Virus record (IMG/VR): IMGVR_UViG_3300042301_003774
Coordinates: 7,518-71,517 of that record
Source of the DNA: a virus
DNA length: 64,000 bases
Reading direction: 5' to 3' (one strand)
Position 1 is the first letter of the stretch. Every line of letters starts with the position of its first letter. Position numbers and translations under genes: made by a program. The notes below the pieces were generated by a model. The model was not told the origin of the DNA and made no database searches. It saw only the letters and a program-made list of their open reading frames with translations. Shown here piece by piece: positions 1,718 to 57,414 of the stretch.

Positions 1718-1768
1718 GCTTTCCATTTAAATATTTTTTTCTTATTATTTTGACATAATATATTATAT

Positions 1769-2995: not shown

Positions 2996-3051
2996 TTTTT
3001 GGTTTTTCGAATTTATTTGCGTATATTAGTTTAAACTTAAAACAATTAGAT

Positions 3052-3282: not shown

Positions 3283-3285
3283 CAA

Positions 3286-3852: not shown

Positions 3853-4456
3853 TTTTAACGAAATTTTGAACCAATTAAAACAATATGAAAGTCTATTATC
3901 TTCCGGTGATGAAAATGAAGATATTGACGAATCGTTAGCAATGGACATAAATAAAACTTTAGAAAGTTTAAATACGGAAATTATGTCCGCTCAAGAAAAG
4001 GAGTATTCACACATCCCAATTAAATTCATAAATAAATCAACGAACGAAGACCCTAAATTTGCCTATGAAGGTGATAGTGGATTTGATTTAAGGGCTGATA
4101 TTGAAGGACCTATAACACTAAAGCCAGGTGAAAGAACACTTATCCCAACAGGATTGTATTTTGAATTAGTTAAAGGTTTAGAATTACAGGTTAGACCAAG
4201 AAGTGGTTTAGCAATAAAAAACGGCATAACTGTTTTAAATAGTCCTGGTACAGTTGATAGTCATTATCGCGGTGAAGTTAAAATACCATTAATTAATTTA
4301 GGTCAAGAACCCTTCAACATATCGAAAGGTGATAGGATTGCTCAGGCAGTTATTGCACCAGTTTATGGCGAAGGTAAAATAAAATTAAACAAAACTGATA
4401 GTATAAACAGTACCGATAGAGGTGAAGGTGGATTTAATTCAAGCGGAATTAAGTAA
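3842..4456 (+). CDS. dut: dUTP diphosphatase
   Basis: GDSGFDLRA, RPRSGLA, NSPGTVDSHYRGE, GDRIAQ, RGEGGFNSSG motifs. Confidence 0.95.
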   Translation: MENNFNEILNQLKQYESLLSSGDENEDIDESLAMDINKTLESLNTEIMSAQEKEYSHIPIKFINKSTNEDPKFAYEGDSGFDLRADIEGPITLKPGERTLIPTGLYFELVKGLELQVRPRSGLAIKNGITVLNSPGTVDSHYRGEVKIPLINLGQEPFNISKGDRIAQAVIAPVYGEGKIKLNKTDSINSTDRGEGGFNSSGIK

Positions 4457-4496
4457 TATTTACAATAAATAAACTATTAAATAAAAATTAAAAATT

Positions 4497-5210
4497 TTGA
4501 TTAAATCTAAAAGTAAAGCTCCGGTCATCGAAGATAGGAAAACTCCCCATAAACAAAGAATTAGGGAGATTATTAAAAAACCAAAAGAAAAATTTTTAAC
4601 AGCTAACCAGGAAAAATATTGGGATATTTTAGGTAATAATCAAATCACTTTATGTTTTGGCCCCGCTGGAGTTGGTAAGTCTTATATAGCAATGAAAAGA
4701 GCTATTGATTTATTATGGGATGAAGAAAATAAATATGAAAAAATTATCATAGTTAGACCCGCGGTAGAAGCTGAAGAGAAATTGGGGTCACTACCTGGTG
4801 GATTAGAAGAAAAATTGGACCCATATATCTACCCTTCTTATTATTTGTTAAATAAAATAATTGGTAAAGAGGCTAGAGAGCGTTTAAAAGACGAAGGTTA
4901 TATTGAAGTAGCCGCTTTAGCTTATATGAGAGGTTGGAATGTTGACAATACAATACTTGTTTTTGAAGAAGCACAAAACGCGTCTCCAGCTCAAATAAAA
5001 TTATTATTAACTAGAATTGGATTTAGTTCAAAATTCTTTTTATCTGGAGACTTAGAACAATCTGACAAATTTAAAGATAAAACCAAAACAGGTCTTTATG
5101 ATGCTAAGAAAAGATTAGATGGTGTTAAAGGTATTGGTGTTTTTGAATTTGGTATGGAAGATATTGTAAGAAACCCAATCATCACCGAAATTTTGCAGAG
5201 ATACGAATAA
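4497..5210 (+). CDS. phoH: PhoH-family ATPase
   Basis: GPAGVGKS Walker A, RPAVEAEEKLGSLPG, AYMRG, EEAQN, GDLEQSD, DIVRNP. Confidence 0.93.
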   Translation: MIKSKSKAPVIEDRKTPHKQRIREIIKKPKEKFLTANQEKYWDILGNNQITLCFGPAGVGKSYIAMKRAIDLLWDEENKYEKIIIVRPAVEAEEKLGSLPGGLEEKLDPYIYPSYYLLNKIIGKEARERLKDEGYIEVAALAYMRGWNVDNTILVFEEAQNASPAQIKLLLTRIGFSSKFFLSGDLEQSDKFKDKTKTGLYDAKKRLDGVKGIGVFEFGMEDIVRNPIITEILQRYE

Positions 5211-5253
5211 TTAGGTATTTACTTTTTTTATTAAAAACCCTATCTTTTGGAAT

Positions 5254-5880
5254 ATGAATATATATATTTCAATCGATGGGGTTTTACGTAATATTATAAA
5301 TCGTTTTCATTATCATTATGAAAATGCATATATAGATGTTGACGAAACGGAAGAGGGAGACTCTTTTGAATATAAAGTTATTGAACCAATAACTAACAAT
5401 AATTTATCAGACCATTTTATCTTTCAATCGAAAGAACAGCAAGATCACTTTCAATATATTGAATATCCAATGGAGCTTTATGGACATTCTCCAGTGAGTT
5501 ACATTAATGTCAATAATGATCTAAACAAAATTGTTTATCATCATAAAGATCATAAAATTTTTCTAGTAGGTTTGGATGAGTTAGGTAAATCTAGACCAGC
5601 AACACTTTTCTTTTTATCGCGCAATGGTATCATGGTAGATAATATAAAATTTATTAAAAGTGAAGATATTGCTAAAGAATGGGAAACCGTTGATTTATGG
5701 ATAAGTGACTCCGAAAAAATCTTACAACTAAAACCTGAAAATAAAGAATTTATATTATTTAGTACAAAGTATAACGAGCACTTTACTTATGAAAAAATAA
5801 TAAATAAATTAAGTGATATTGATATTGAAAATAGTCAAATAATAATAAACAACGAAAACAAAAACCTACTAGATGCCTGA
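5254..5880 (+). CDS. HAD-superfamily (5'-nucleotidase-like) protein, possibly inactive
   Basis: N-terminal IYISIDGVLRN resembles HAD motif I with first Asp replaced by Ser. Confidence 0.45.
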   Translation: MNIYISIDGVLRNIINRFHYHYENAYIDVDETEEGDSFEYKVIEPITNNNLSDHFIFQSKEQQDHFQYIEYPMELYGHSPVSYINVNNDLNKIVYHHKDHKIFLVGLDELGKSRPATLFFLSRNGIMVDNIKFIKSEDIAKEWETVDLWISDSEKILQLKPENKEFILFSTKYNEHFTYEKIINKLSDIDIENSQIIINNENKNLLDA

Positions 5881-6160
5881 TTTTAAAAACAACGAGTATT
5901 ATATAGATATTGATGGTTATATTGAAAAATGTAGAACCGGAAATACATTAAAGGATGAAGATGATAAAGATGTTATGGAGATTAACATTTTTAAATATGA
6001 ATTAATAAAAATGATGATTGAACGTATATTAGATGAATATGATGAAGAGGGTGAAGATGATGTATTGTCTTCATTAAAAGGTAAAAAAACCTCAACATCA
6101 TTTAATTTAGCGTTTAATACGTTATATCAGTACGGAATAATAAAAGAAGAAAACGATTAA
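5873..6160 (+). CDS. hypothetical protein
   Basis: 95-aa acidic ORF overlapping the upstream gene. Confidence 0.55.
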   Translation: MPDFKNNEYYIDIDGYIEKCRTGNTLKDEDDKDVMEINIFKYELIKMMIERILDEYDEEGEDDVLSSLKGKKTSTSFNLAFNTLYQYGIIKEEND

Positions 6161-6161
6161 T

Positions 6162-7229
6162 ATGAGTGAAAAACTAACAACTATCGAAAAGTTACAAGAC
6201 GCGTTATCTAGAATTGAATCAAAAGAAAATGGAATCTATTTTCTTTGTTATGATACTAGAGGTAATGCTAGAGCCGCAGTGAAACATATCTATGATATGG
6301 CGCTATTTCTAAAACAAGAAGGGTACAACGCAAAAATTCTTGCAGAAGAAAAAACATACCAAGGTGTAACATCTTGGTTAGGTGATAAATATGATTCAAT
6401 CCCAGTGGTATCGATTAAAGAAGATCGGGTAGAAATGGGTATTGATGATGTGCTTGTTATCCCAGAACAATATTCTAATGTTTTAGAACAACTAGCTAAC
6501 GTTAAATGTACTAAAGTAATGTTAATTCAACAAAAAGAATATATGTATGAAACATTACCAATCGGTAGCAAATTCTTAGACTATGGTATTGAAAAAATTA
6601 TCACAACAACTAACGCAACTAAAAAATATCTTCAAGAGTATTTTCCAGATGCTTTAACTTTTGTTATTCCACCTGTAATCGAAGATTATTTTTCACCAAC
6701 TGAAAAGATGGCTAAACCATATATTGCGATTAGCTGTAGAGATAGAATGACGCATAGAAAATTAATCTCAGAATTTTATTTAAAATATCCACAATTAAGA
6801 TGGGTAACATTTAGAGATATGGTTCAAATGTCTAATGAAGAATTTTCAGAAGGATTGAAAGAATGTTTTGTTTCGGTTTGGGTTGATGATGATAGTACAT
6901 TTGGTACATTCCCATTAGAATCAATGAAATCAGGTGTTCCAGTTATTGGTAAAATTCCTATGACTGAGCCAGATTGGTTAAGTGAAAATGGTTTCTGGAC
7001 ATATGATGAAAGTAAACTTGTTGAATTACTGGGCACGTATTGTGTTGCTTGGTTAGAGGGGGTTGAAATCAATGAAGACGTTAAAAATAAAATGAAAGAG
7101 ACGTTACAACCATATGAAAAAGAAATCACAAAAAATAATGTATTAAATATCTTTGACTCTTTTAATTCAAAAAGAAAAGATTTAATCAATAAGGGATTAG
7201 AAAAATTAAAAACAGAAGAAGCCGTATGA
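6162..7229 (+). CDS. glycosyltransferase (GT-B-like)
   Basis: DVLVIPE, STFGTFPLESMKSGVPVIG resembles the GT4 E-x7-E region. Confidence 0.7.
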   Translation: MSEKLTTIEKLQDALSRIESKENGIYFLCYDTRGNARAAVKHIYDMALFLKQEGYNAKILAEEKTYQGVTSWLGDKYDSIPVVSIKEDRVEMGIDDVLVIPEQYSNVLEQLANVKCTKVMLIQQKEYMYETLPIGSKFLDYGIEKIITTTNATKKYLQEYFPDALTFVIPPVIEDYFSPTEKMAKPYIAISCRDRMTHRKLISEFYLKYPQLRWVTFRDMVQMSNEEFSEGLKECFVSVWVDDDSTFGTFPLESMKSGVPVIGKIPMTEPDWLSENGFWTYDESKLVELLGTYCVAWLEGVEINEDVKNKMKETLQPYEKEITKNNVLNIFDSFNSKRKDLINKGLEKLKTEEAV

Positions 7230-8011
7230 AAAAAATAACTGTATTATTGCCGATTCACAAACTTAATGACAATTATGATGATATGTTATTAAATGCTGTT
7301 GAATCTGTTAAAGAGTTTTATAACGATGTAAAATTACTAATCGTTGCACCAGAAAAATTAAAAAAAGAGTTAACTAAAATTGATTTAGGTCAGAAACTAG
7401 AAATAAATTATGAGTTTCATAATTCAGAATCTGATTTTTGTTCACAAATTAATGTTGGCGCAAAATCTTGTGACACGGAATGGTTTTCAATTTTAGAAGT
7501 TGATGATGAATATCAAAAAATTTGGTTAAAATCAATTACGCAATACATGAGCGAACAACCAGATGCTGAGGTATTTTTACCAATTGTTAAAGATATTAAC
7601 CCTATGGGTGAATTAACAAATTACACAAACGAATCTGTATGGGCTTATGGATTTTCAGAAAAACAAGGTATCATTGATAATGAAGTTTTAATGGAATATC
7701 AAAACTATCAAATTTCTGGCGGTGTTTATAAAACAAAAACATTTTTAGATAATGGTGGATTAAAAAGTAATATCAAATTAACTTTTGGTTATGAGTTACT
7801 ACTTAGGTTAACACATAATGGCGTTAAAGTTGTTGTTGTTCCTAGGATTGGATATAAACACGTTAATTTAAGGGAAGACTCACTTTTTTGGGCATATAAG
7901 AATGATGAAACAATTAAGCTAAAAGGTAATGAAGCTAAGTTTTGGATTGAAACAGCAAAAAAAGAATTCTTTTTTAACAATAAACGCGATGTAATTTATA
8001 ATGAAGCTTAA
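7226..8011 (+). CDS. glycosyltransferase family 2-like
   Basis: ITVLLPIH N-terminus, N.GAK....EWFSILEVDD DxD-like motif. Confidence 0.7.
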   Translation: MKKITVLLPIHKLNDNYDDMLLNAVESVKEFYNDVKLLIVAPEKLKKELTKIDLGQKLEINYEFHNSESDFCSQINVGAKSCDTEWFSILEVDDEYQKIWLKSITQYMSEQPDAEVFLPIVKDINPMGELTNYTNESVWAYGFSEKQGIIDNEVLMEYQNYQISGGVYKTKTFLDNGGLKSNIKLTFGYELLLRLTHNGVKVVVVPRIGYKHVNLREDSLFWAYKNDETIKLKGNEAKFWIETAKKEFFFNNKRDVIYNEA

Positions 8012-45573: not shown

Positions 45574-46116
45574 TTATTTTTTATTAAAAAATGCTTTATT
45601 AATTAAAGACTCGCAGGTCTTCTTTATTGCTGACGATAGTGCTTGTTGATTTACTTTATCACTACCTTCGTCTGTTATTAATGTCGATGTTGAAATCTCT
45701 GAGCTAGATTCTTCGGCAACAACTTCCTTAAGTTTTTTACCAGACTTATCACTCAACTTACCCCTCATTACCACCAACGTTTCTTCAACATCAGAATGGA
45801 ATACGGAGATATTTCGTTTAGTTTTATTTACATCAAAGTATAGTATTTCCGCACTAAAGATTAAATCAGCTGATTTTGCGTCTTCAACAATTATAAAATC
45901 TTTATCTTGTAATATTTCCTGGAAAATGTTTTTAGCACCAAAAGCTAAACTTCTATTATTAGTTAGTTTACCAATTTTGATGTTATTTTCTACCCCAGAA
46001 ATGTATACCGCCTTTGTTTCCTGTAAAGGATCTACGATGTAAGAATACATCCCAAAAAACCCTAATACCACAAAAATGGGTATCAGAGACACATTTAGTC
46101 TATTATTATTTGCCAT
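45574..46116 (-). CDS. membrane-anchored CsgG/LptE-like protein
   Basis: N-terminal TM; LAFGAKNI.QEIL and NQQALSSAIKK parallel to 37007..37726. Confidence 0.45.
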   Translation of the reverse strand: MANNNRLNVSLIPIFVVLGFFGMYSYIVDPLQETKAVYISGVENNIKIGKLTNNRSLAFGAKNIFQEILQDKDFIIVEDAKSADLIFSAEILYFDVNKTKRNISVFHSDVEETLVVMRGKLSDKSGKKLKEVVAEESSSEISTSTLITDEGSDKVNQQALSSAIKKTCESLINKAFFNKK

Positions 46117-46241
46117 AACAATAAATATCGTCAAGGCAATTTGAAGGCCAATATTTACTAAAATATAAGGTAAATCATTAATTTATTAAAAAAAAATAAT
46201 TTTATTTTTTAAGTTTTCTTGATTATATACATATTTATTGG

Positions 46242-46249
46242 TATCTTTG
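46242..46249 (+). promoter_or_regulatory. Bacteroidota-type -7 promoter element for leader 1 / tRNA array 1
   Basis: TATCTTTG = TAnnTTTG consensus. Confidence 0.6.
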
Positions 46250-46277
46250 TAAAAGAAAAAAGATAAAACTAAATTCA

Positions 46278-46376
46278 ATGAGACAATTTACACATACAAT
46301 GTCGTTTACAATCTGTTCAAAATGGGCGGATGAGCGCGCTATGCATAATAGTCTCGGAGATGTTGTATTAAGTTAA
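46278..46376 (+). CDS. attenuator leader peptide 1 (32 aa)
   Basis: MRQFTHTMSFTICSKWADERAMHNSLGDVVLS; codons match array-1 tRNAs; 3' part overlaps an antiterminator strand. Confidence 0.75.
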   Translation: MRQFTHTMSFTICSKWADERAMHNSLGDVVLS

Positions 46377-46400
46377 AAGTAGATTTTAACTAAAAATATT

Positions 46401-46438
46401 AAAACCCTGAGACTTAAAAATCTCGGGGTTTTTTGTTT
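46401..46438 (+). terminator. conditional intrinsic terminator before tRNA array 1
   Basis: AAAACCCTGAGA/TCTCGGGGTTTT stem plus U-tract; 5' arm CTGAGACT can instead pair with AGTCTCGG (46350-46357). Confidence 0.8.
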
Positions 46439-46440
46439 AT

Positions 46441-46510
46441 GGGCCGGATGTCAATGGCAGACCACCTGATTTGCAATCAGAGTGAATGGGTTCGATTCCC
46501 AACGTGTCCA
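46441..46510 (+). tRNA. tRNA-Ala(TGC), imperfect acceptor stem
   Basis: Loop TTTGCAA, G3:U70, T-loop TTCGATT. Confidence 0.7.
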
Positions 46511-46516
46511 CAGAAT

Positions 46517-46590
46517 TGGAATATAGCTCAGTTGGTTAGAGCGTCATCCTGATACGGTGAATGTCGATGGTTCGAGTCCATCTATTCCAA
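46517..46590 (+). tRNA. tRNA-Ile(GAT)
   Basis: Cloverleaf, loop CTGATAC. Confidence 0.9.
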
Positions 46591-46595
46591 CATAA

Positions 46596-46668
46596 GGAAT
46601 TTTTGTATAGCTGGTGCGTACGTCGGACTGAAAATCCGAAGGAACAAGTTCGATTCTTGTAGATTCCA
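46596..46668 (+). tRNA. tRNA-Phe(GAA)
   Basis: Cloverleaf, loop CTGAAAA. Confidence 0.88.
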
Positions 46669-46674
46669 CATAAT

Positions 46675-46748
46675 GATCTCGTAGCTCAGCTGGATAGAGC
46701 ACCTCACTTTTAATGAGGGAGTCAATGGTTCGAGTCCATTCGGGATCA
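46675..46748 (+). tRNA. tRNA-Lys(TTT)
   Basis: Cloverleaf, loop CTTTTAA. Confidence 0.92.
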
Positions 46749-46754
46749 CAACAC

Positions 46755-46825
46755 ACGGGTATGGTGCAACGGTAGCATACGGGTCTCCAAAACCTTTGAT
46801 GGAAGTTCGAATCTTTCTATCCGTG
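46755..46825 (+). tRNA. tRNA-Trp(CCA)
   Basis: Cloverleaf, loop CTCCAAA. Confidence 0.88.
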
Positions 46826-46846
46826 CAAAATTTTAAAAATAAAAAA

Positions 46847-47272
46847 ATGGAAAATAATGAATTAGGGTATAAGTTAAAAATAGATGCTCAACTTATACAA
46901 GTCCGAGAGGAAAGAAAAAAAAGGATAAAAGAATATTGGGAAAATTTACCCAAAATCAATACGCCTGTGGATGTACCTGAATTACCTCAAGTAGATATTC
47001 AAGAATGGAAAGAGTATTATGTCCCAAAACTAATTGAAGCTGGTGCTATTCCTAAAAAAGATTTGGTTGTTGGTCAAATTTATATTGGTGAACATAGGAG
47101 AGCTAGGGTTGCTAAATGGAATGGAGAACAATTTGTTTATAACAGGGAAAAATTTGGAAATGTCTTTGAAGATAAATGCAACCATTTTGAAGATGATGAT
47201 GGGTTCGCATTATTTGTTCCAATAAGAATTGGCACCGAAGAAGAGTTTAATAAAAATGGTCTCATAGTTTAA
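46847..47272 (+). CDS. hypothetical protein inside tRNA array 1
   Basis: 141-aa ORF from ATG 46847; stop lies within tRNA-Arg. Confidence 0.6.
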   Translation: MENNELGYKLKIDAQLIQVREERKKRIKEYWENLPKINTPVDVPELPQVDIQEWKEYYVPKLIEAGAIPKKDLVVGQIYIGEHRRARVAKWNGEQFVYNREKFGNVFEDKCNHFEDDDGFALFVPIRIGTEEEFNKNGLIV

Positions 47273-47328
47273 TGGAAAAACGTCTCGCTACGGACGAGAT
47301 GATTGAGGTTCGAATCCTTGTGAGATCT
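47258..47328 (+). tRNA. tRNA-Arg(ACG)
   Basis: Cloverleaf, loop CTACGGA. Confidence 0.88.
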
Positions 47329-47335
47329 CTTATTA

Positions 47336-47405
47336 GGTCAGTTTGGTCGTGGAGGCCAGTTAGTCTGCAAAACTAACGGAGTTGGTTCGATTCCAACATT
47401 GACCT
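47336..47405 (+). tRNA. tRNA-Cys(GCA)
   Basis: Cloverleaf, loop CTGCAAA, U73. Confidence 0.85.
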
Positions 47406-47407
47406 CT

Positions 47408-47483
47408 GTGTTTATGGTGTTAATGGTTAGCATGACAGATTGTGGTTCTGTTGGTATGGGTTCAAATCCCATTAAACACCCCA
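47408..47483 (+). tRNA. tRNA-His(GTG)
   Basis: Loop TTGTGGT, C73, encoded CCA. Confidence 0.88.
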
Positions 47484-47488
47484 TATAT

Positions 47489-47563
47489 TGCGGGATGCGT
47501 AGAAAATGGTTATCTCATCGGTCTCATAAGCCGAGGTTCTGGGTTCGAGTCCCAGTCCCGCAA
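47489..47563 (+). tRNA. tRNA-Met(CAT)
   Basis: Loop CTCATAA, paired U1-A72, atypical D arm. Confidence 0.75.
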
Positions 47564-47626
47564 CAAAAAATATGTCTGAATAATTTTTTTATTCGATTTA
47601 TTTATTTATTTTTGTTGAAGATATAT

Positions 47627-47698
47627 CGCGAGATAGAGCAGCGGTAGCTCGGAAGGCTCATAACCTTTAGGTCGGGGGTTCGATTCCCTCTCTCGCAA
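47627..47698 (+). tRNA. initiator-type tRNA-fMet(CAT)
   Basis: C1xA72 mismatch, loop CTCATAA. Confidence 0.82.
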
Positions 47699-47700
47699 CA

Positions 47701-47883
47701 ATAGGTGAAGACTGTGGTGGAAGCCCACGGTATATGAGTCCCTAAAAGCTGTCTTGATTCGCGGTATCAAAGCGGTGCGGGTAGAGTAACATATAAGTCG
47801 GGAGTAATTAACCAATTGACGAAAATGTAACCGCCGGTTAGAGATAATCGGTTATGATGTTCAAATGCGAACGAAAAACCTAT
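47701..47883 (+). ncRNA. unknown structured RNA
   Basis: ATAGGT/ACCTAT closing stem, several hairpins, GGAGTAATTAACC motif. Confidence 0.45.
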
Positions 47884-47887
47884 AAAC

Positions 47888-47959
47888 GGTCCTGTAGTTA
47901 ATCGGCTATAACGCCGCCCTGTCACGGCGGTATGCCGGGTTCGATTCCCGGTGGGACCG
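47888..47959 (+). tRNA. tRNA-Asp(GTC)
   Basis: Cloverleaf, loop CTGTCAC, G73. Confidence 0.92.
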
Positions 47960-47960
47960 C

Positions 47961-48174
47961 AATGAGTAAGAGATACTCGGTAGTCTTTCATCCAAGACTC
48001 ATTTAACAATGGATGGGGATAAAAAATTTCCACCTACGGAATTTCGATTTGGAATAATGGTAGCAAGGTTCAGCACCACCAACGTATTGAACTGACTTTT
48101 TAATCGGGGATGCCCAGCAGGTTTTTCAAACAGTAAAAACCGATATAACTACTCACAGACAATCTCGCTGTGGG
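47961..48174 (+). ncRNA. unknown structured RNA with possible pseudoknot
   Basis: Multiple hairpins; loop TCATCC complementary to GGATGG. Confidence 0.4.
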
Positions 48175-48180
48175 ACAATT

Positions 48181-48266
48181 GGAAGGATGGCAGAGTTGGT
48201 CTATCGCGCTGGTCTTGAAAACCAGAGCTCTGAAAGGGGCCGTGGGTTCGAATCCTACTCCTTCCG
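48181..48266 (+). tRNA. tRNA-Ser(TGA)
   Basis: Long variable arm, loop CTTGAAA, G73. Confidence 0.92.
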
Positions 48267-48267
48267 C

Positions 48268-48406
48268 TAATCACAAATAAAAATGTGAGTTATAATAAAA
48301 TAGCCAATTATAAGCCAACATAAAGTTGTTGGGTACAGACGGAGTAATTAACCGGAGTATAACGCAACAATTGTGATATTATAACAAATACCCATTTGAG
48401 TGATTA
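48268..48406 (+). ncRNA. unknown structured RNA
   Basis: TAATCAC/GTGATTA closing stem, second GGAGTAATTAACC motif. Confidence 0.4.
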
Positions 48407-48409
48407 TTT

Positions 48410-48481
48410 GGCCCGTTCGACTATCGGTTAGGTCGTCAGGTTTTCATCCTGGAAAGAGGGGTTCGATTCCCCTACGGGCTA
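48410..48481 (+). tRNA. tRNA-Glu(TTC)
   Basis: Cloverleaf, loop TTTTCAT. Confidence 0.92.
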
Positions 48482-48496
48482 CTAAACATTATTAGT

Positions 48497-48703
48497 ATGA
48501 AGAAGATTGTTTTATTATTAATTGTTGCGATCTCAATGTGTGGTTGTATTGTGATGCCAAGTAGGTTATCAATTCATGAAAAAAGATTATGGATACACCA
48601 AAATCAACCAAGACAATATTACTATAAAACACATCCAAGATTTCAAGAAAGAATAAAAAGAGGTAAAATTTACACACCTTATTTTAGACCTGGTAGATAT
48701 TAA
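48497..48703 (+). CDS. small putative lipoprotein
   Basis: MKKIVLLLIVAISMCGC signal/lipobox. Confidence 0.55.
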   Translation: MKKIVLLLIVAISMCGCIVMPSRLSIHEKRLWIHQNQPRQYYYKTHPRFQERIKRGKIYTPYFRPGRY

Positions 48704-48764
48704 AATAAAAAAATATTTACAATTAAAATAAACTTTTGTAAATTTACGTATACTTATTACAACG

Positions 48765-48875
48765 ATGACGAATATAAATAACATATTAACGCTTAGTACT
48801 AGACCCCTTAACAATGGTAATGGGTATGGTGTGCAACCGTTATATTGCTTATGTTCGGATCTTATAGAGATGTAA
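48765..48875 (+). CDS. attenuator leader peptide 2 (36 aa)
   Basis: MTNINNILTLSTRPLNNGNGYGVQPLYCLCSDLIEM; codons 2-27 all belong to array-2 tRNA codon families. Confidence 0.78.
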   Translation: MTNINNILTLSTRPLNNGNGYGVQPLYCLCSDLIEM

Positions 48876-48897
48876 AAAATTTTTACGATTATAAATG

Positions 48898-48938
48898 AAG
48901 CCCGAACAAATTAAAAAAATGTTCGGGCTTTTTGTTTT
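48898..48938 (+). terminator. conditional intrinsic terminator before tRNA array 2
   Basis: AAGCCCGAACA/TGTTCGGGCTT stem plus U-tract; CCGAACA can instead pair with TGTTCGG (48852-48858). Confidence 0.8.
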
Positions 48939-48968
48939 CTAATATTTTATCTCTATATTTGAAACATA

Positions 48969-48979
48969 GTTCTTTGACA
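48969..48979 (+). promoter_or_regulatory. boxA-like antitermination element
   Basis: GTTCTTTGACA resembles rrn boxA; similar elements at 54482 and 56941. Confidence 0.5.
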
Positions 48980-48995
48980 TGATGAAAAGCCAAAT

Positions 48996-49079
48996 GCCTG
49001 GGTGATGGAATGGTAGACATGACAGACTTAAAATCTGTTGGGCAAATCGCTCGTGCGGGTTCGACTCCCGCCCTAGGTA
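48996..49079 (+). tRNA. tRNA-Leu(TAA)
   Basis: Long variable arm, loop CTTAAAA. Confidence 0.92.
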
Positions 49080-49083
49080 CAAT

Positions 49084-49157
49084 GGTTCCATAGCTCAATT
49101 GGATAGAGCAACACACTTCTAATGTGTAGGTTTCAGGTTCGACTCCTGATGGAATCA
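49084..49157 (+). tRNA. tRNA-Arg(TCT)
   Basis: Cloverleaf, loop CTTCTAA. Confidence 0.92.
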
Positions 49158-49158
49158 C

Positions 49159-49298
49159 AAAGATAATGGTCTGATGTTATTATGATTGTCGACAAATCAT
49201 GGTAGCTCTTAAACAGACAGCACCCTCTGCCGATGCATCGTAAAACTATTACTAAGCAGTTAAGATTGGAACGAGACGGGTATTCCAACATTATCTTT
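49159..49298 (+). ncRNA. unknown structured RNA
   Basis: 10-bp closing stem AAAGATAATG/CATTATCTTT, multi-way junction, possible TCTTAA/TTAAGA pseudoknot. Confidence 0.5.
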
Positions 49299-49303
49299 AT
49301 TTT

Positions 49304-49377
49304 CGGGATATAGCGTAGTCCGGTATCGCGCTTGGTTTGGGACCAAGAGGTCGTAGGTTCGAATCCTGCTATCCCGA
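49304..49377 (+). tRNA. tRNA-Pro(TGG)
   Basis: Cloverleaf, loop TTTGGGA. Confidence 0.92.
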
Positions 49378-49384
49378 CATTATT

Positions 49385-49458
49385 GCCTTCTTAGCTCAGT
49401 TGGTTAGAGCAACGCACTGTTAATGCGTGGGTTCCTGGTTCGAGTCCAGGAGAGGGCG
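49385..49458 (+). tRNA. tRNA-Asn(GTT)
   Basis: Cloverleaf, loop CTGTTAA. Confidence 0.92.
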
Positions 49459-49465
49459 CAACAAT

Positions 49466-49546
49466 GCCCTGGTGGTGGAATTGGTAGACACACTAGATTT
49501 AGGATCTAGCGCGAAAGTATTGAGGGTTCGAGTCCCTCCTAGGGTA
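49466..49546 (+). tRNA. tRNA-Leu(TAG)
   Basis: Loop TTTAGGA, long variable arm. Confidence 0.92.
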
Positions 49547-49555
49547 CAATAAATT

Positions 49556-49636
49556 GGGAGTATCGCATAGTGGCAATTGCAGAAGACTGTAAATCTTCCC
49601 TCATCGAGTTCAGTGGTTCGAGTCCACTTACTCCCA
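49556..49636 (+). tRNA. tRNA-Tyr(GTA)
   Basis: Loop CTGTAAA, long variable arm. Confidence 0.92.
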
Positions 49637-49642
49637 CAATTT

Positions 49643-49719
49643 GGACTTGTAGCTCAGTTGGTTAGAGCACTTCACTCATAATGAATAGGTCCCTGGTTCG
49701 AGCCCAGGCTGGTCCACCA
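49643..49719 (+). tRNA. tRNA(CAT), probably Ile2 (lysidine; reads AUA)
   Basis: Ile-like body (GGACTTG-TAGCTCAGTTGGTTAGAGC), loop CTCATAA, encoded CCA; ATA codons in leader 2 are consistent. Confidence 0.75.
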
Positions 49720-49722
49720 AAT

Positions 49723-49795
49723 AGAAGATTAGCTCAGTTGGGAGAGCGCTTGTCTTACATGCAAGATGTCACTGGTTCGATTCCAGTATCTTCTA
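49723..49795 (+). tRNA. tRNA-Val(TAC)
   Basis: Cloverleaf, loop CTTACAT. Confidence 0.92.
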
Positions 49796-49800
49796 CAATT

Positions 49801-49873
49801 GCCTCCATAGCTCAGTTGGTAGAGCAGCTGATTTGTAATCAGCAGGTCGTTGGTTCGAGCCCGACTGGAGGCT
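49801..49873 (+). tRNA. tRNA-Thr(TGT)
   Basis: Cloverleaf, loop TTTGTAA. Confidence 0.93.
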
Positions 49874-49925
49874 CGATGGGTCTGAGGGAGTCCCGAAAAG
49901 GTATAAATAACCTGTCCCTCTCCAA

Positions 49926-49998
49926 GCGAAAGTAGCTCAGTCGGTAGAGCATTACCTTGCCAAGGTAAGGGTCGCGAGTTCGAATCTCGTCTTTCGCT
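49926..49998 (+). tRNA. tRNA-Gly(GCC)
   Basis: Cloverleaf, loop TTGCCAA, U73. Confidence 0.93.
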
Positions 49999-50046
49999 CT
50001 TAGAGGTACTTCCAAGTTTTTTTAATATTTGGAAGTATTTATAGAT

Positions 50047-50478
50047 ATGAAAACAAAAATATGCCCTAAATGTGAAATTGAATTACCGTTAAATGACGAA
50101 CATTTCGCATCAAGATATGATAGAAAAGAAAAAATGTTTCAACATATCTGTAGAAAATGTCAGAGTGAATATAGAAAAACTCATTATGAAAAAAATAAAC
50201 AAAAATATATTGATAAAGCTAAAGTCTTTACTAAATCAATGGTTGAATGGTTTATTGAATATAAAAAAACATTAAAATGTGTCGAATGTGGTGAAGATAG
50301 ATATTGGGTTTTAGATTTTCACCATAGAGACCCTAAAGAAAAAGATATCGAGGTTTCTACTTTAATTAGAAGGGGTAGTAAAAGTAAAATATTAAATGAA
50401 ATTGAAAAATGTGACGTTCTATGTTCTAATTGTCATAGGGATTTACATTTTAAAGAAAATAATGCGGATTTCGCCTAG
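50047..50478 (+). CDS. HNH endonuclease (putative homing endonuclease)
   Basis: CxxC pairs, LDFHHRDP..K...EIEKCDVLCSNCHR HNH motif; lies between two tRNA-Gly genes. Confidence 0.85.
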   Translation: MKTKICPKCEIELPLNDEHFASRYDRKEKMFQHICRKCQSEYRKTHYEKNKQKYIDKAKVFTKSMVEWFIEYKKTLKCVECGEDRYWVLDFHHRDPKEKDIEVSTLIRRGSKSKILNEIEKCDVLCSNCHRDLHFKENNADFA

Positions 50479-50537
50479 TTGGTATGGCATCACACTTCCA
50501 ATGTGAAATAGGATCGGTTCGAGCCCGATAATCCGCT
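50464..50537 (+). tRNA. tRNA-Gly(TCC)
   Basis: Cloverleaf, loop CTTCCAA. Confidence 0.9.
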
Positions 50538-50542
50538 CATTA

Positions 50543-50613
50543 TGTCCTTTGGTGTAACGGTAGCACAACTGTTTTTGGTGCAGTTTGTTTAGGTTCGAAT
50601 CCTAAAGGGACAA
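50543..50613 (+). tRNA. tRNA-Gln(TTG)
   Basis: U1-A72, loop TTTTGGT. Confidence 0.9.
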
Positions 50614-50617
50614 CAAT

Positions 50618-50707
50618 AGAGAGTTACCCAAGTTGGTGAAGGGGTCTGTTTGCTAAACAGATAGGTCGGGTTAAACCGGCGCAAGGGTTCGAGCCCCTTA
50701 CTCTCTA
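50618..50707 (+). tRNA. tRNA-Ser(GCT)
   Basis: Loop TTGCTAA, long variable arm. Confidence 0.9.
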
Positions 50708-50711
50708 CATA

Positions 50712-50860
50712 CTGTAGTGTGACGAAATTGGCAAACGTGCCCTCCTGTCTCGGGGGCGGTGACAAAGAAATAGATTAGTAATATGGGGTAGACCACCAGC
50801 CGGCCGGCGTAATGTTACTAATTGAATCTCACCTTGGTGGTTCGAATCCATCCGCTACAG
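50712..50860 (+). ncRNA. tRNA-like RNA (GTC anticodon position) with ~80-nt variable arm
   Basis: 8-bp acceptor CTGTAGTG/CGCTACAG, D and T arms intact, loop CTGTCTC, very large structured variable region. Confidence 0.7.
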
Positions 50861-50894
50861 CATTTATAAAATAAACTAAGTAAAATGAAATGAA

Positions 50895-51356
50895 ATGAAA
50901 CAATTTAAAACACTTCACGGAATTGTGATTCCGAACTTGATTGAATATGTTAGGGAATACATATCAACAAGGGAGAACGTAGAAATTCTTATTGGTTCTG
51001 ACTCACAATGTTATAGCCATAAAAAAACCGTGTATGGTGTTGTAATTGCTTTATACACTCCTGGAAAGGGGGCACACGTTTTATGTAATCGTGAAACATT
51101 ACCGATGGAATATAATACACCGTCTAGATTATTAAATGAAGTTTGGAGATCGATTGAAATTGCTGAATGGATGAAAGAAAACGGTTTACCAAAAGCAACA
51201 TATATTGATATTGATTTAAATCCAGATCCAAAGTACAAATCAAACGCTGTATTAAGACAAGCTGTTGGTTTAGTTGAAGGTATGGGGTATAAAGTTAGAT
51301 ATAAACATTTCGGTGCTTTAACAACATACGCAGCTAATCAACTAGTTCGAATTTAA
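50895..51356 (+). CDS. RNase H-like YkuK family protein
   Basis: ILIGSDSQ, RLLNEVWRSIEIA, IDIDLN motifs. Confidence 0.75.
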   Translation: MKQFKTLHGIVIPNLIEYVREYISTRENVEILIGSDSQCYSHKKTVYGVVIALYTPGKGAHVLCNRETLPMEYNTPSRLLNEVWRSIEIAEWMKENGLPKATYIDIDLNPDPKYKSNAVLRQAVGLVEGMGYKVRYKHFGALTTYAANQLVRI

Positions 51357-51375
51357 AGGTATTTATAGTTAACAT

Positions 51376-52230
51376 ATGCATATAAACATACCCGAATATA
51401 AATTAAGTATTATTGTACCACATAAATCTGGTAATACTATAATATACTCAACTATAGTAGAAATTCTGGAATTAAATTCAATTGAATTTAATAACACATC
51501 TAATAATGATGAGTTAGAAGAAAATTGTTTTTTATTTGTAAGAAACCCTATAGATAGATTTTTCTCATCATATAATTGGTATGCAAAGGTTAAAAGATTA
51601 TTTGATGTTGATAGATTGGACAGTCTAACAGCAGATCAATTATCCCTGATGGACGAATCGTTAAAAATATTTGGTGATTTAGAAATTGATTCATTACAAA
51701 AATTTATTGAAAAGTATAGGATTTTTATAAATAATTCAACTGATACCCATTTTTTACCGCAAAGTTCTTTTTTTTTAAAAAGAAATGGTGATAAAGGAAT
51801 GAGAGCAAATTTAAATCTTAATATTAGAAAAGAGTACGACGCTAGGTTTGAAAATCGAAACTATAAATTTTTTAGAGTTGAGGACATTAGCGATACCATA
51901 AAATTAAATAAAAGTTTATTAATGAGTCGGGGTATAACAAACTTTGGTATACATAAAAAAGATAATGTTAGTAAGGTCGACCTAAAAACATTTCCCTTTC
52001 TAAAAGATTTTCCAAAAAACACTGACCATTTATTTATGGTTTTTCATGCTTATTTTAATGATTTTTTATCTGAATATCATCATTCAAAAAACCCTAATTA
52101 CTATTATAATGAAATTACTGTTAATGATTATATAACGGTATGTAACATGTTTAAAAAAGAATGTGTTTTTTTTGGCTATGATGACGAGCCGAATTTAAAC
52201 AATATTGAATTCAAAAGAAACACGATTTAA
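51376..52230 (+). CDS. sulfotransferase family 2-like protein
   Basis: PHKSGNT, FVRNPIDRFFSSY, HFLPQ motifs. Confidence 0.65.
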   Translation: MHINIPEYKLSIIVPHKSGNTIIYSTIVEILELNSIEFNNTSNNDELEENCFLFVRNPIDRFFSSYNWYAKVKRLFDVDRLDSLTADQLSLMDESLKIFGDLEIDSLQKFIEKYRIFINNSTDTHFLPQSSFFLKRNGDKGMRANLNLNIRKEYDARFENRNYKFFRVEDISDTIKLNKSLLMSRGITNFGIHKKDNVSKVDLKTFPFLKDFPKNTDHLFMVFHAYFNDFLSEYHHSKNPNYYYNEITVNDYITVCNMFKKECVFFGYDDEPNLNNIEFKRNTI

Positions 52231-56955: not shown

Positions 56956-57361
56956 GGGGGTGTCTGGTATTGATTGGCGTTGATATGGTAAATGGGCACG
57001 TAGTCAGACTTCATCTATGACTTAAATCTATGGTGGAAAATTTTTAGACGGCAACGTTTACAACAACATGGAAGTAGCTGGTTTACTAGCAACTACCAAA
57101 GTAGCAGCCTAACCAAGTTAGGTTCTACAACGGGTCGACTGGCGTATAACCTTGGAACAGAAGCCTTCAAAGTGTGATACCACTCTAGAGTGTCAGGAGT
57201 CTCGTTAGAGGTGCTACTTCAATAAAAGTGAACCTCCCACAGTTATAGGTAATGATGGAAAAATTAGAACCTTTTATTTGTCTATTGTGAATAATAGAAT
57301 AAACGTGTAGGCCATCTACGATATGGCGAGCAAGACACGGGTTCGACTCCCGTCACCTCCA
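56956..57361 (+). ncRNA. ssrA: tmRNA
   Basis: GGGGGTG/CACCTCC-A acceptor with G3:U70, T-arm ACGGGTTCGACTCCCGT, tag ORF ending VAA-stop (57050-57112), TATCTTTG promoter and downstream terminator. Confidence 0.88.
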
Positions 57362-57414
57362 CTCTAACCCTTACAGAAATGTAGGGGTTTTTTGTTTGGT
57401 AACTATCTAAACGA

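What the first reader, a model, noticed from the sequence alone, without database searches (positions are those of the whole stretch)
46242..50860. Two tRNA arrays, each gated by a leader-peptide attenuator whose codons match that array's own tRNAs
Seen in sequence: each array is preceded by a short ORF and then an intrinsic terminator, and the 3' part of each ORF can pair with the terminator's 5' arm. Codon content splits with the tRNA inventory at isoacceptor level. The leader-1 sensing block has Ile ATC, Arg CGC and Ser TCA/TCG, and array 1 has Ile-GAT, Arg-ACG and Ser-TGA. Leader 2 has Ile ATA, Arg AGA and Ser AGT, and array 2 has Ile2-CAT, Arg-TCT and Ser-GCT. Established: trp/his-type attenuators use ribosome stalling to favour an antiterminator, but they sense one or a few amino acids and control biosynthetic genes. 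Inference: each leader is a multiplexed sensor, so loss of any of about 12-13 host tRNA species (for example by anticodon-nuclease defences or tRNA decay during infection) stalls the ribosome and induces the phage array that resupplies it. I am not aware of such a system having been described.
Basis: partly seen in the sequence, partly recalled or inferred. Interest (0 to 1): 0.97.

Follow-up and report, generated by a model that had tools for sequence, protein, structure and literature searches.

The report
Codon-matched leader attenuators before phage tRNA arrays
In this uncultured phage, each of two blocks of tRNA genes sits behind a tiny gene spelled in the codons those tRNAs read, followed by a switchable transcription stop, so the phage probably makes a tRNA block when those codons are read slowly.

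Summary
Two promoter / short ORF / intrinsic terminator units (46242-46438 and 48739-48933) precede 13 tRNA genes each. Leader 1 holds a codon for 12 of 12 decoding classes of array 1. Leader 2 opens with 26 consecutive array-2 codons covering 13 of 13 species, and both are the top loci of their kind in the 71.5-kb genome.

Relatives give the main support. Eighty-three IMG/VR contigs carry one or both attenuator types. In 32 distinct units, 337 of 351 array tRNA species have a cognate codon in their own leader, and the match is specific to the reading frame and to the isoacceptor. Where tRNAs were exchanged, gained or moved between arrays, the leader changed to match.

Covariation supports the terminator and the antiterminator, and more weakly an upstream 1:2 helix. 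I read this as ribosome-mediated attenuation of tRNA genes.

Caveats:
- Nothing has been tested experimentally.
- Array 2 probably also has its own promoter behind the terminator.
- Some small-array relatives lack leaders.
- Three Thr codons in leader 1 have no Thr tRNA in array 1.

My literature searches found no published account. This scan noted the same kind before on other phage DNA.

The parts
46219..46249 (+). Promoter of leader 1: TTG (46219-21), 20-nt spacer, -7 box TATCTTTG (46242-49), Bacteroidota sigma-A type
   Evidence: Read. TAnnTTTG lies upstream of 32 of 35 unique type-1 leaders, 29 of them with TTG 17-21 nt before it. The consensus and its position (-12 to -5) come from passages of PMC9723704.
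46278..46376 (+). Leader ORF 1 (32 codons, MRQFTHTMSFTICSKWADERAMHNSLGDVVLS). Codons 4-20 (46287-46337) hold a codon for every array-1 decoding class.
   Evidence: Conserved as an ORF in relatives, with indels in multiples of three. No Pfam or PHROG match.
46280..46284 (+). Region 1 of attenuator 1 (GAGAC in ATGAGACAA), which can pair with GTCTC of region 2
   Evidence: Full-length minimum-free-energy fold. The start-region:arm duplex is stronger than shuffles, mean z = -2.6, with 26 of 36 below -2. Suggestive only.
46350..46357 (+). Region 2 of attenuator 1 (AGTCTCGG), inside the ORF, 17 nt before the stop codon; 5' arm of the antiterminator
   Evidence: The two bases after GTCTC, which the search pattern left free, pair with the Y bases of the terminator 5' arm: n1-Y2 in all unique sequences and n2-Y1 in 34 of 36, as A-T or G-C.
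46401..46438 (+). Intrinsic terminator 1 (stem AAAACCCTGAGA / TCTCGGGGTTTT, T-run). Region 3 is CTGAGACT, 46407-14. tRNA-Ala starts 3 nt after 46438.
   Evidence: The first tRNA lies 8-28 nt after the end of the search pattern (which includes the first four T of the T-run) in 14 of 18 unique type-1 spacers, leaving no room for a promoter.
46441..48482 (+). Array 1: Ala-TGC, Ile-GAT, Phe, Lys-TTT, Trp | ORF 46847-47272 | Arg-ACG, Cys, His, CAT (47496), CAT (47627, initiator-like), Asp, Ser-TGA, Glu-TTC, with three unassigned spacers
48739..48746 (+). -7-like box of leader 2 (TAAATTTA, one mismatch to TAnnTTTG), 18 nt before the ATG
   Evidence: Read. 21 of 25 unique type-2 leaders have an exact TAnnTTTG, mostly 17-18 nt before the ATG; the window's copy is one of the 4 without an exact box.
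48765..48875 (+). Leader ORF 2 (36 codons, MTNINNILTLSTRPLNNGNGYGVQPLYCLCSDLIEM). Codons 2-27 (48768-48845) are all array-2 codons and cover 13 of 13 species.
48769..48777 (+). Region 1 of attenuator 2 (CGAATATAA), which pairs with TTATGTTCG (48849-57)
   Evidence: Compensatory changes are seen in L078/L121, L134 and L163, and the register is shifted in the KTT family. 62% of cells pair in the fixed register, and the -1 slide control scores as well, so the formal support is weak.
48852..48858 (+). Region 2 of attenuator 2 (TGTTCGG), inside the ORF, 15 nt before the stop codon
   Evidence: The only pair not fixed by the search pattern reads AU 12, UA 7, UG 1, unpaired 1, gap 3 (0 of 500 shuffles reach the covariation score).
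48900..48938 (+). Intrinsic terminator 2 (GCCCGAACA / TGTTCGGGC, 11-nt loop, T-run TTTTTGTTTT)
   Evidence: 100% of cells pair, and the two free pairs covary (AU 14 / CG 9 / GC 1; AU 7 / UA 6 / UG 6 / GU 2).
48932..48980 (+). Probable internal promoter and conserved box: TTG (48932-34, inside the T-run), 19 nt, TATATTTG (48954-61), GTTCTTTGACAT (48969-80); tRNA-Leu starts at 48996
   Evidence: TAnnTTTG occurs in 19 of 23 unique type-2 spacers. The same promoter-box-tRNA layout, without ORF or terminator, is seen in L019, L066 and L069.
48996..50708 (+). Array 2: Leu-TAA, Arg-TCT, Pro-TGG, Asn, Leu-TAG, Tyr, CAT (49643, probable Ile2), Val-TAC, Thr-TGT, Gly-GCC | HNH endonuclease ORF 50047-50478 | Gly-TCC, Gln-TTG, Ser-GCT

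Best explanation
Each unit is a ribosome-mediated (leader-peptide) transcription attenuator that controls tRNA genes, and its regulatory codons are the codons read by the tRNAs behind it.

Proposed mechanism. A host sigma-A-type promoter starts a short transcript. A ribosome translates the leader while RNA polymerase moves on.
- If every codon of the block is decoded quickly, the ribosome runs over region 2 to the stop codon and comes to sit between regions 2 and 3. Region 2 cannot then pair forward, though it can pair back with region 1 at the start codon. The 3:4 terminator forms and transcription stops before the tRNAs.
- If any one of the 12-13 tRNA species is scarce or uncharged, the ribosome stalls upstream of region 2. 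Region 2 pairs with region 3 (the antiterminator), and the polymerase reads into the array.
- RNase P and 3' processing then release the tRNAs, which relieve the stall. This closes a feedback loop on tRNA supply.

Shown here: the anatomy; a non-random codon match that is specific to frame and isoacceptor; its co-variation with array content across relatives; and covariation in helices 2:3 and 3:4.

Inferred: that the leaders are translated; the direction of the switch; the wedge role of the ribosome; the physiological trigger; and a Bacteroidota host.

For array 1 the terminator must be read through for at least the first tRNAs to be made. For array 2 the attenuator probably adds to a basal internal promoter.
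For: Window. Full coverage of 12 of 12 and 13 of 13 classes, unique in the genome. All classes lie at least 13 nt upstream of region 2 (codons 4-20 and 2-25, read).

Relatives found without using the leader. 72 IMG/VR loci came from a neighbouring protein. 23 of them have at least 4 tRNAs on the array strand, and 16 of those have the leader unit.
- Loci whose first array is Pro, Asn, Trp, Leu-TAG, Gln, CAT, Thr ... keep the same promoter, start, tail and terminator. Their block reads LTNMTSFSNQLNWNEQPM instead of FTHTMSFTICSKWADERAM.
- In L045/L046, Asp and Ser-TGA sit in array 2. Leader 1 has lost GAT and TCN from its block, and leader 2 has gained GAT, TCG and TCA.
- Thr-TGT sits in array 1 in L035 and L046, which have 4 Thr codons in leader 1. 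L040, L062 and L071 have 1.

Signature scans. 45 and 52 viral loci matched, on 83 distinct contigs by my comparison of the names. 117 of 124 matches have a 20-60-codon ORF over the arm. New designs appear, for example MKTTIKHMVFSTQQKSICWYERM before Glu, Val, Phe, Lys, Cys, Trp, Tyr, CAT, Gln, Arg-ACG, His, Ser-TGA, Ile, Ser-GCT, covering 14 of 14.

Statistics on 32 distinct non-truncated units:
- The cognate fraction is 0.74 with the unit's own array against 0.48 with other arrays (0 of 100,000 permutations).
- 337 of 351 array species are represented in their own leader, with a Mantel-Haenszel odds ratio of 72.
- Shifting the frame by +1 or +2 gives 217 and 172 of 351.
- Nearest-neighbour contrasts give 54 in the right direction, 50 ties and 8 in the wrong direction.
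- At isoacceptor level (Ser, Arg, Leu, Gly) there are 84 codons of the isoacceptor present against 20 of the one absent. Skipping the first three block codons gives 79 against 10.
- ATA codons are present in 23 of 23 units whose array has the 49643-type CAT tRNA, against 9 of 18 units with only the other CAT types.

Structure.

Host plausibility. Passages of PMC9723704 give the -7 box consensus and report clues for leader-peptide attenuation at amino-acid operons in a Flavobacterium.
Against: - There are no expression data. Translation, termination and read-through are all untested.
- Each tRNA has only 1-3 scattered codons, not the tandem runs of classical attenuators (recalled), so sensitivity is uncertain.
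- The terminators are far more stable than the antiterminators at equilibrium. The full-length fold always shows the terminator, so the switch has to be kinetic.
- A ribosome at the stop codon would not cover region 2, by my geometry from a recalled mRNA path. The wedge argument is inference.
- A promoter-like element lies behind terminator 2.
- 7 of 23 related loci with at least 4 tRNAs have no leader before the first tRNA.
- Mismatches exist. Leader 1 has three ACA codons while Thr-TGT is in array 2. Thr codons occur in 17 units without a Thr tRNA. Small arrays keep unchanged leaders, which accounts for many of the 50 ties. 14 array species have no codon in their leader.
- The units are related, so the p-values overstate independence.
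- The inner stem pairs were fixed by my own search patterns.
- Support for the 1:2 helix is weak (where the -1 slide does as well).
Confidence: 0.75

Rival explanations
1. The units are translation-coupled attenuators that report general translation capacity (ribosome availability, global slowing after host shut-off or ribosome-targeting defence) and not the supply of particular tRNAs. On this view the codon content is secondary.
For: The architecture would also respond to any global slowing of elongation. The nearest published case, the Anabaena trn array, responds to general translational stress (passages of PMC8421152; abstract of PMC10272220). Each tRNA has only 1-3 codons in the leader.
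Against: A general sensor needs no codon match. The match is frame-specific and isoacceptor-specific, and it is rewritten when arrays change.
Confidence: 0.1
2. The logic is inverse. Efficient translation of the leader, which proves the array's tRNAs are present, promotes read-through, and stalling promotes termination. That would be a feed-forward or checkpoint circuit.
For: With the ribosome parked at the stop codon, region 2 lies just outside the expected footprint and could in principle pair with region 3 (my geometry). Nothing here fixes the sign of the switch experimentally.
Against: A 1:2 helix competing for region 2 and the position of all sensing codons upstream of region 2 fit the classical sign. 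A positive loop on tRNA genes would have no obvious use and could never start from zero for array 1, which has no other promoter before its first tRNAs.
Confidence: 0.06
3. The short ORFs are ordinary small protein genes with their own terminators, or are untranslated RNA elements. On this view the codon match with the arrays has no regulatory meaning.
For: The peptide sequence is conserved. An internal promoter may drive array 2 independently. Some relatives lack leaders.
Against: - No family match was found.
- Substitutions follow the array content and not residue chemistry, for example K to N, C to Q and R to P.
- Synonymous codon choice follows the isoacceptor present. The Arg tally is 21 to 1 in favour of it, mostly CGN codons, although AGR dominates the genome 519 to 133.
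- Array 1 has no room for another promoter.
- The antiterminator covaries.
Confidence: 0.04

Closest known systems
Leader-peptide transcription attenuators of amino-acid operons (trpL, hisL, leuL, pheL; multivalent thrL and the ilvGMEDA leader). Recalled from textbook knowledge, not fetched.
   Same: Promoter, short ORF rich in regulatory codons, mutually exclusive antiterminator and terminator hairpins, and a probable 1:2 helix. Ribosome position decides which hairpin forms. The multivalent leaders already sense 2-3 amino acids.
   Different: The regulated genes are tRNAs, the sensed molecules themselves, so the loop closes directly on tRNA supply. There are 12-13 tRNA species with 1-3 scattered codons each, not runs of one codon. 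Discrimination is at isoacceptor level. Region 2 lies inside the ORF upstream of the stop codon. The element is phage-borne with a Bacteroidota-type promoter. The codon set is rewritten as the array changes.
pheST (pheM leader) attenuation of phenylalanyl-tRNA synthetase in E. coli. Recalled, not fetched.
   Same: A gene of the translation apparatus is controlled by a leader whose codons report the availability of the cognate charged tRNA.
   Different: It has one amino acid, a protein-coding target and a bacterial chromosome setting.
Anabaena sp. PCC 7120 trn operon, a long tRNA array induced under translational stress (PMC8421152, passages read; PMC10272220, abstract read)
   Same: An accessory array of about 26 tRNA genes is kept low and switched on when translation is impaired.
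   Different: Control is at the promoter, through direct repeats bound by the repressor TrcR. The words attenuat-, leader peptide and terminator occur 0 times in the main text of PMC8421152. There is no codon-level sensing, and the array lies on a megaplasmid, not in a phage.
T-box riboswitches. Recalled.
   Same: Transcription attenuation that reads tRNA status by anticodon identity.
   Different: T-boxes bind uncharged tRNA directly with a specifier codon and need no translation. They sense one tRNA and control synthetase or amino-acid genes. The permissive Rfam search of 45800-51400 gave no T-box match.

Membership tests
Ribosome-mediated (leader-peptide) transcription attenuator | A short ORF lies in the transcript between the promoter and the regulated genes | tested here: met
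   ORFs 46278-46376 and 48765-48875. The ORF is kept in 117 of 124 signature matches. Indels are in multiples of three. -7 boxes lie upstream.
Ribosome-mediated (leader-peptide) transcription attenuator | An intrinsic terminator lies between the leader ORF and the regulated genes | tested here: met
   The first tRNA lies 8-28 nt after the end of the search pattern in 14 of 18 unique type-1 spacers.
Ribosome-mediated (leader-peptide) transcription attenuator | An alternative antiterminator helix, mutually exclusive with the terminator, has its 5' strand within reach of the translating ribosome | tested here: met
   It forms in the truncated transcripts. Covariation at positions not fixed by the search: 24 of 26 and 34 of 36 unique sequences; AU 12 / UA 7 / UG 1.
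Ribosome-mediated (leader-peptide) transcription attenuator | The regulatory codons are cognate to the product of the regulated genes | tested here: met
Ribosome-mediated (leader-peptide) transcription attenuator | Read-through depends on translation of the leader and rises when the cognate charged tRNA is scarce | not testable with these tools
T-box riboswitch | Stem I with a specifier loop and the conserved T-box sequence in the antiterminator bulge | tested here: not met
   No T-box family appears among the 39 matches with E up to 1 in 45800-51400 or at gathering score in the whole window.
Repressor-controlled stress-induced tRNA array (Anabaena trn / TrcR type) | [quoted passage not shown] | not tested
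   I did not search for the cyanobacterial repeat motif or for a TrcR homologue. The promoters here are of the Bacteroidota type.

The most novel reading that the evidence does not exclude
Phage tRNA arrays are operons under codon-resolved, closed-loop control. The leader works as a checksum of the array's contents and as an AND gate. Transcription stops only if all 12-13 species are decoded quickly. Depletion of any single tRNA (host tRNA decay after shut-off, anticodon-nuclease defence, or a mismatch between phage codon usage and host supply) therefore switches on the whole block until supply is restored. The sensor is evolvable: codons are added, dropped or moved between leaders as tRNA genes move. 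It also recurs in unrelated phage lineages, as this scan's earlier notes suggest. That would make it a general and so far undescribed principle of viral tRNA gene regulation.
Probability: 0.6. Interest if true: 0.95.

Novelty: new variant of a known kind. Interest (0 to 1): 0.9.

Why it matters
Why phages carry tRNA genes, and how they express them, is an open question. Current ideas are codon-usage compensation, replacement of decaying host tRNAs, and escape from tRNA-cleaving defences.

A leader that spells out the array's own codons would show that the phage measures decoding of exactly those codons and supplies tRNAs on demand. That turns the question into a testable one: which depletion induces which array.

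It would also extend leader-peptide attenuation from 1-3 amino acids and enzyme genes to a 12-13-channel sensor that controls the sensed molecules themselves.

In practice:
- Leaders can be used to annotate doubtful tRNAs. Here the 49643-type CAT tRNA goes with ATA codons.
- Leaders indicate operon boundaries of tRNA arrays in metagenomic phages.
- They offer compact parts for reporters of tRNA availability.

Tried and rejected
Searches for relatives that gave little or nothing:
- DNA search of the phage collection with the whole region returned only tRNA-level hits. The leader-1 region alone gave 5 short chance-like hits.
- tblastn with the neighbouring 546-aa protein gave no match. The 705-aa protein gave 9 distant hits at or below 29% identity. 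No cultured relative was found.
- The search for related loci with the 705-aa protein gave one 6.9-kb contig that holds only the end of array 2.
- The genome-contig scan with the type-2 signature gave 69 hits. None has a tRNA array behind it, and only 2 loci have any tRNAs, on the other strand. I read them as chance matches, so they give no host clue.

Read data:
- Sequencing runs: 8 runs hold 5-9% of the sampled words, all kept as contigs.
There is therefore no expression evidence either way.

Structure and tRNA identity:
- Equilibrium folding with a masked ribosome footprint always kept the terminator. It cannot show the switch, which has to be kinetic.
- The fixed-register count for the 1:2 helix was not clearly better than the -1 slide. 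I keep that helix as suggestive only.
- Alignment A1 put the arms of L062 and L045 out of register. I used per-sequence motif tables instead.
- Classing the three CAT tRNAs from acceptor and D-stem features was done by eye and from recalled identity rules. It is not decisive, so CAT was treated as one class (ATG or ATA) in all statistics.

Rows dropped before counts:
- Searches used only units whose array was not cut by the locus end and had at least 4 tRNAs. That left 32 distinct units from 117 ORF-bearing matches.
- Searches also dropped L112 and L113, where two arrays were merged because no type-2 pattern was found between them.
- tRNA calls came from ARAGORN at 90% thresholds plus BLAST for Ala-TGC. 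A few of these calls are doubtful, for example doubled calls in L162 and '???' anticodons.

Literature. Five searches found no account of leader-peptide attenuation of tRNA genes. The library lacks most subscription journals.

Rejected readings: a RiPP or bacteriocin precursor, or another functional peptide (no family match, and codon choice follows the isoacceptor), and a T-box (no Rfam match).

Full report
WHAT IS THERE

The window belongs to a 71.5-kb contig of a tailed phage. Major head protein, portal and large terminase lie at 16-25 kb. The G+C content is 32%.

ARAGORN finds 24 tRNA genes and a tmRNA. Rfam adds two tRNAs above its gathering score, 46441-46510 (Ala-TGC by ARAGORN at lowered thresholds) and 47496-47563 (CAT). 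The tRNAs form two blocks of 13:
- Array 1 (46441-48482): Ala-TGC, Ile-GAT, Phe, Lys, Trp, Arg-ACG, Cys, His, two CAT, Asp, Ser-TGA, Glu.
- Array 2 (48996-50708): Leu-TAA, Arg-TCT, Pro, Asn, Leu-TAG, Tyr, CAT, Val, Thr, Gly-GCC, Gly-TCC, Gln, Ser-GCT.

Array 2 is split by an HNH endonuclease gene. Each block is preceded by a short ORF (46278-46376, 32 codons; 48765-48875, 36 codons) and a hairpin with a T-run.

Upstream of leader 1 lies TTG-N20-TATCTTTG. This fits the sigma-A -7 box TAnnTTTG of flavobacteria (passages of PMC9723704). Leader 2 has TAAATTTA at the homologous place.

IS THE CODON MATCH MORE THAN CHANCE?

I assigned every sense codon to the tRNA species that reads its box.
- Leader 1 has 18 array-1 and 13 array-2 codons, and leader 2 has 6 and 29. 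Only 73 of 200,000 random partitions of the tRNAs do as well.
- Under the phage's own codon usage, the chance of covering all 12 array-1 classes in 31 codons is 2.3e-4. For all 13 array-2 species in 35 codons it is 5.4e-3, and a run of 26 array-2 codons has probability 3.7e-8.
- Empirically, among all stop-free six-frame windows of the genome, full array-1 coverage within 20 codons occurs 10 times in 48,478, always in leader 1.
- Full array-2 coverage within 26 codons occurs 15 times in 39,584, 12 of them in leader 2. The longest array-2 run in the genome is leader 2.

The exceptions are three ACA (Thr) codons in the leader-1 block, the first two codons AGA CAA, and the tails after the block.

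RELATIVES FOUND WITHOUT USING THE LEADER

A neighbouring 546-aa protein recovered 72 IMG/VR loci at 61-82% identity. Of these, 23 have at least 4 tRNAs on the array strand, and 16 of the 23 carry the leader unit before the first tRNA. The ORFs are conserved in frame, and indels are multiples of three. Three natural experiments stand out.

1. Exchanged first array. In L029, L030, L031, L037 and L039 the first array is Pro, Asn, Trp, Leu-TAG, Gln, CAT, Thr, (Asp), Ser-TGA, (Glu). The homologous leader keeps the same promoter, the same MRQ start, the same ICLDDTDVG tail and the same terminator. Its block, however, reads LTNMTSFSNQLNWNEQPM instead of FTHTMSFTICSKWADERAM. The codons for Ile, Cys, Lys, Ala, Arg-ACG and His are gone, and codons for Leu, Asn, Gln, Pro and Thr have come in.

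2. tRNAs moved between arrays. In L045/L046, Asp and Ser-TGA lie in array 2. Leader 1 has no GAT or TCN in its block (20 of 21 codons are cognate, and 11 of 11 species are covered). Leader 2 has gained GAT, TCG and TCA.

3. Thr-TGT. It lies in array 1 in L035 and L046, which have four Thr codons in leader 1. It lies in array 2 in L040, L062 and L071, which have one. The window, with three, looks like a recent mover whose leader has not caught up.

THE WIDER FAMILY

Two signature patterns, each consisting of the arm in the ORF plus the two terminator arms, found 45 and 52 viral loci. These lie on 83 distinct contigs, 14 with both types, by my comparison of the names. An ORF of 20-60 codons runs over the arm in 117 of 124 matches.

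Quite different designs share the same stems:
- MKTTIKHMVFSTQQKSICWYERM stands before Glu, Val, Phe, Lys, Cys, Trp, Tyr, CAT, Gln, Arg-ACG, His, Ser-TGA, Ile-GAT, Ser-GCT. It covers 14 of 14 species, with both TCG and AGT present.
- MRTTSHNIISNNQQENCCYEP stands before Glu, His, Cys, Tyr, Gln, Ser-GCT, Ile.
- A leader rich in W, S and D stands before Trp, CAT, Asp, Ser-TGA.

Statistics on the 32 distinct units whose arrays are not cut off and have at least 4 tRNAs:
- The block codons are cognate to the unit's own array at 0.74 on average, against 0.48 with other units' arrays (0 of 100,000 permutations).
- 337 of 351 array species have a cognate codon in their own leader. The Mantel-Haenszel odds ratio across species is 72.
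- Reading the same DNA one or two bases out of frame gives 217 and 172 of 351.
- Along a minimum spanning tree of leader similarity, a tRNA present in one neighbour and absent in the other goes with more codons 54 times, equal numbers 50 times and fewer 8 times.
- For Ser, Arg, Leu and Gly, in units whose array has only one of the two isoacceptors, the block holds 84 codons of the isoacceptor present and 20 of the one absent. Without the first three block codons this is 79 to 10. The Arg part of this tally is 21 to 1, mostly CGN codons in units whose array holds only Arg-ACG, although AGR outnumbers CGN 519 to 133 in the phage's genes.

These units are related, so the p-values are optimistic. 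Even so, several independent rewritings are visible, and the frame-shift and isoacceptor controls do not depend on independence.

THE RNA SWITCH

In both leaders the transcript cut before the terminator's 3' arm folds with the ORF arm paired to the terminator's 5' arm. The full-length transcript folds into the terminator.

At positions my search patterns left free, the antiterminator covaries:
- In type 2, the base before GTTCGG pairs with the base after CCCGAAC in 24 of 26 unique sequences, as T-A, A-T, G-C or T-G. On alignment A3 this reads AU 12, UA 7, UG 1, unpaired 1.
- In type 1, the second base after GTCTC is A where the arm has T and G where it has C, in 34 of 36 sequences.

The terminator's free pairs covary too. 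The six or seven inner pairs were fixed by the search and say nothing.

A third helix joins the start-codon region to the ORF arm: GAGAC with GTCTC in type 1, and CGAATATAA with TTATGTTCG in type 2. It is stronger than shuffles (mean z = -2.6 and -2.3). Its partners change together in several families, for example GAATTTGA with TCAAGTTC, GAACTTGG with CCAAGTTC, and AACTACA with TGTAGTT. The fixed-register count, however, is no better than a one-column slide, so I call this helix suggestive.

If it is real, it explains why the first few codons (AGA CAA, AAG AAT, AAA ACT ACA) escape the codon rule: they are region 1.

In terms of geometry, all 12 and all 13 classes occur at codons whose A-site lies at least 13 nt upstream of region 2. 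A ribosome stalled there would leave region 2 free. The stop codons lie 15-17 nt after region 2, inside the loop that the antiterminator would have to close.

WHAT LIMITS THE CLAIM

- Nothing shows that the leaders are translated or that termination is conditional.
- In 14 of 18 unique type-1 spacers the first tRNA lies 8-28 nt after the end of the search pattern, too close for a promoter, so array 1 needs read-through.
- Behind terminator 2, however, lies TTG-N19-TATATTTG followed by a conserved GTTCTTTGACAT box. TAnnTTTG is present in 19 of 23 unique spacers.
- In relatives with only 6-7 tRNAs (L019, L066, L069), the same promoter-box layout leads straight into the tRNAs with no ORF and no terminator. 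Array 2 therefore probably has a basal promoter, and attenuator 2 adds to it.
- Loci of the Pro/Asn/Trp class keep terminator 2 directly after the upstream gene, without leader 2.
- Small arrays often keep an unchanged, over-complete leader.

COMPARISON WITH WHAT IS KNOWN

The anatomy meets every sequence-level criterion of a leader-peptide attenuator. It differs in its target (tRNA genes), in multiplexing (12-13 species with single scattered codons), and in isoacceptor-level matching.

No T-box or other known cis-regulator matches. The peptides match no family.

The nearest published case I could read is the Anabaena trn array. It is induced by translational stress, but through promoter repeats and the repressor TrcR. 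The words attenuat-, leader peptide and terminator occur 0 times in that paper's main text.

Five literature searches found no description of attenuation of tRNA genes. Facts about trp, his, ilv, thr, pheST, T-boxes, the ribosomal mRNA path and anticodon nucleases are recalled, not fetched.

This scan has noted the same kind of element before on other phage DNA, including a marine Bacteroidota phage, phiCbK-like phages and giant phages. I did not check those notes, except for the pointer to the Anabaena paper.

VERDICT

This is a new variant of a known kind of switch, with high interest.

Noticed in passing
window 48932-48980; L019, L066, L069 upstream of their first tRNA: A conserved 12-nt box, GTTCTTTGA(C/A)AT, lies 7-12 nt after a -7-type box and about 15 nt before the first tRNA. 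It occurs both behind terminator 2 and in leaderless arrays. Its function is unknown; it could be the 5' leader of the pre-tRNA or a binding site.
   Followed up: partly
L030, L039, L040, L046, L062, L071 (for example L062:2866-3273, minus strand): GOLLD RNA (RF02032, 275-322 bits) lies a few kb from the tRNA arrays and the tmRNA in 6 of 7 relatives scanned. It is absent from the window at gathering score.
   Followed up: no
window 50712-50860: A stretch with tRNA-like ends directly after Ser-GCT is scored by neither ARAGORN (default thresholds) nor Rfam. At 85% thresholds ARAGORN calls a doubtful Asn-GTT at about 50782-50861.
   Followed up: no
window 47700-47887, 47961-48180, 48268-48409, 49160-49303; L013 upstream of Asp: Long unassigned spacers between tRNAs have no Rfam match. 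Two share GGAGTAATTAACC, and a similar motif precedes the array in L013. They would be released by tRNA processing.
   Followed up: no
window 50047-50478; L045/L046 between terminator 2 and Leu-TAA; L017 upstream of Thr: HNH homing-endonuclease genes are inserted at different places in or before the arrays. In L045/L046 the insertion separates attenuator 2 from its array by about 615 nt.
   Followed up: no
leader blocks of 32 units (window 46287-46346, 48768-48845 and relatives): For tRNAs with U34, G-ending codons are over-used in the leader blocks (107 G to 194 A, against 1728 to 7310 in the phage's genes; GAG 17 to GAA 4, GGG 8 to GGA 1, GCG 12 to GCA 4). C- and T-ending codons show no bias. 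This could raise sensitivity through wobble decoding or reflect stem composition. The units are not independent.
   Followed up: partly
window 47627-47699: This CAT tRNA has a C1:A72 mismatch and an A11:U24 pair, read by eye. By recalled identity rules these are marks of an initiator tRNA, so the phage seems to carry its own initiator tRNA in array 1.
   Followed up: no
window 56956-57364: A phage-encoded tmRNA with tag peptide GNVYNNMEVAGLLATTKVAA. It rescues stalled ribosomes and so may interact with a stall-based sensor.
   Followed up: no
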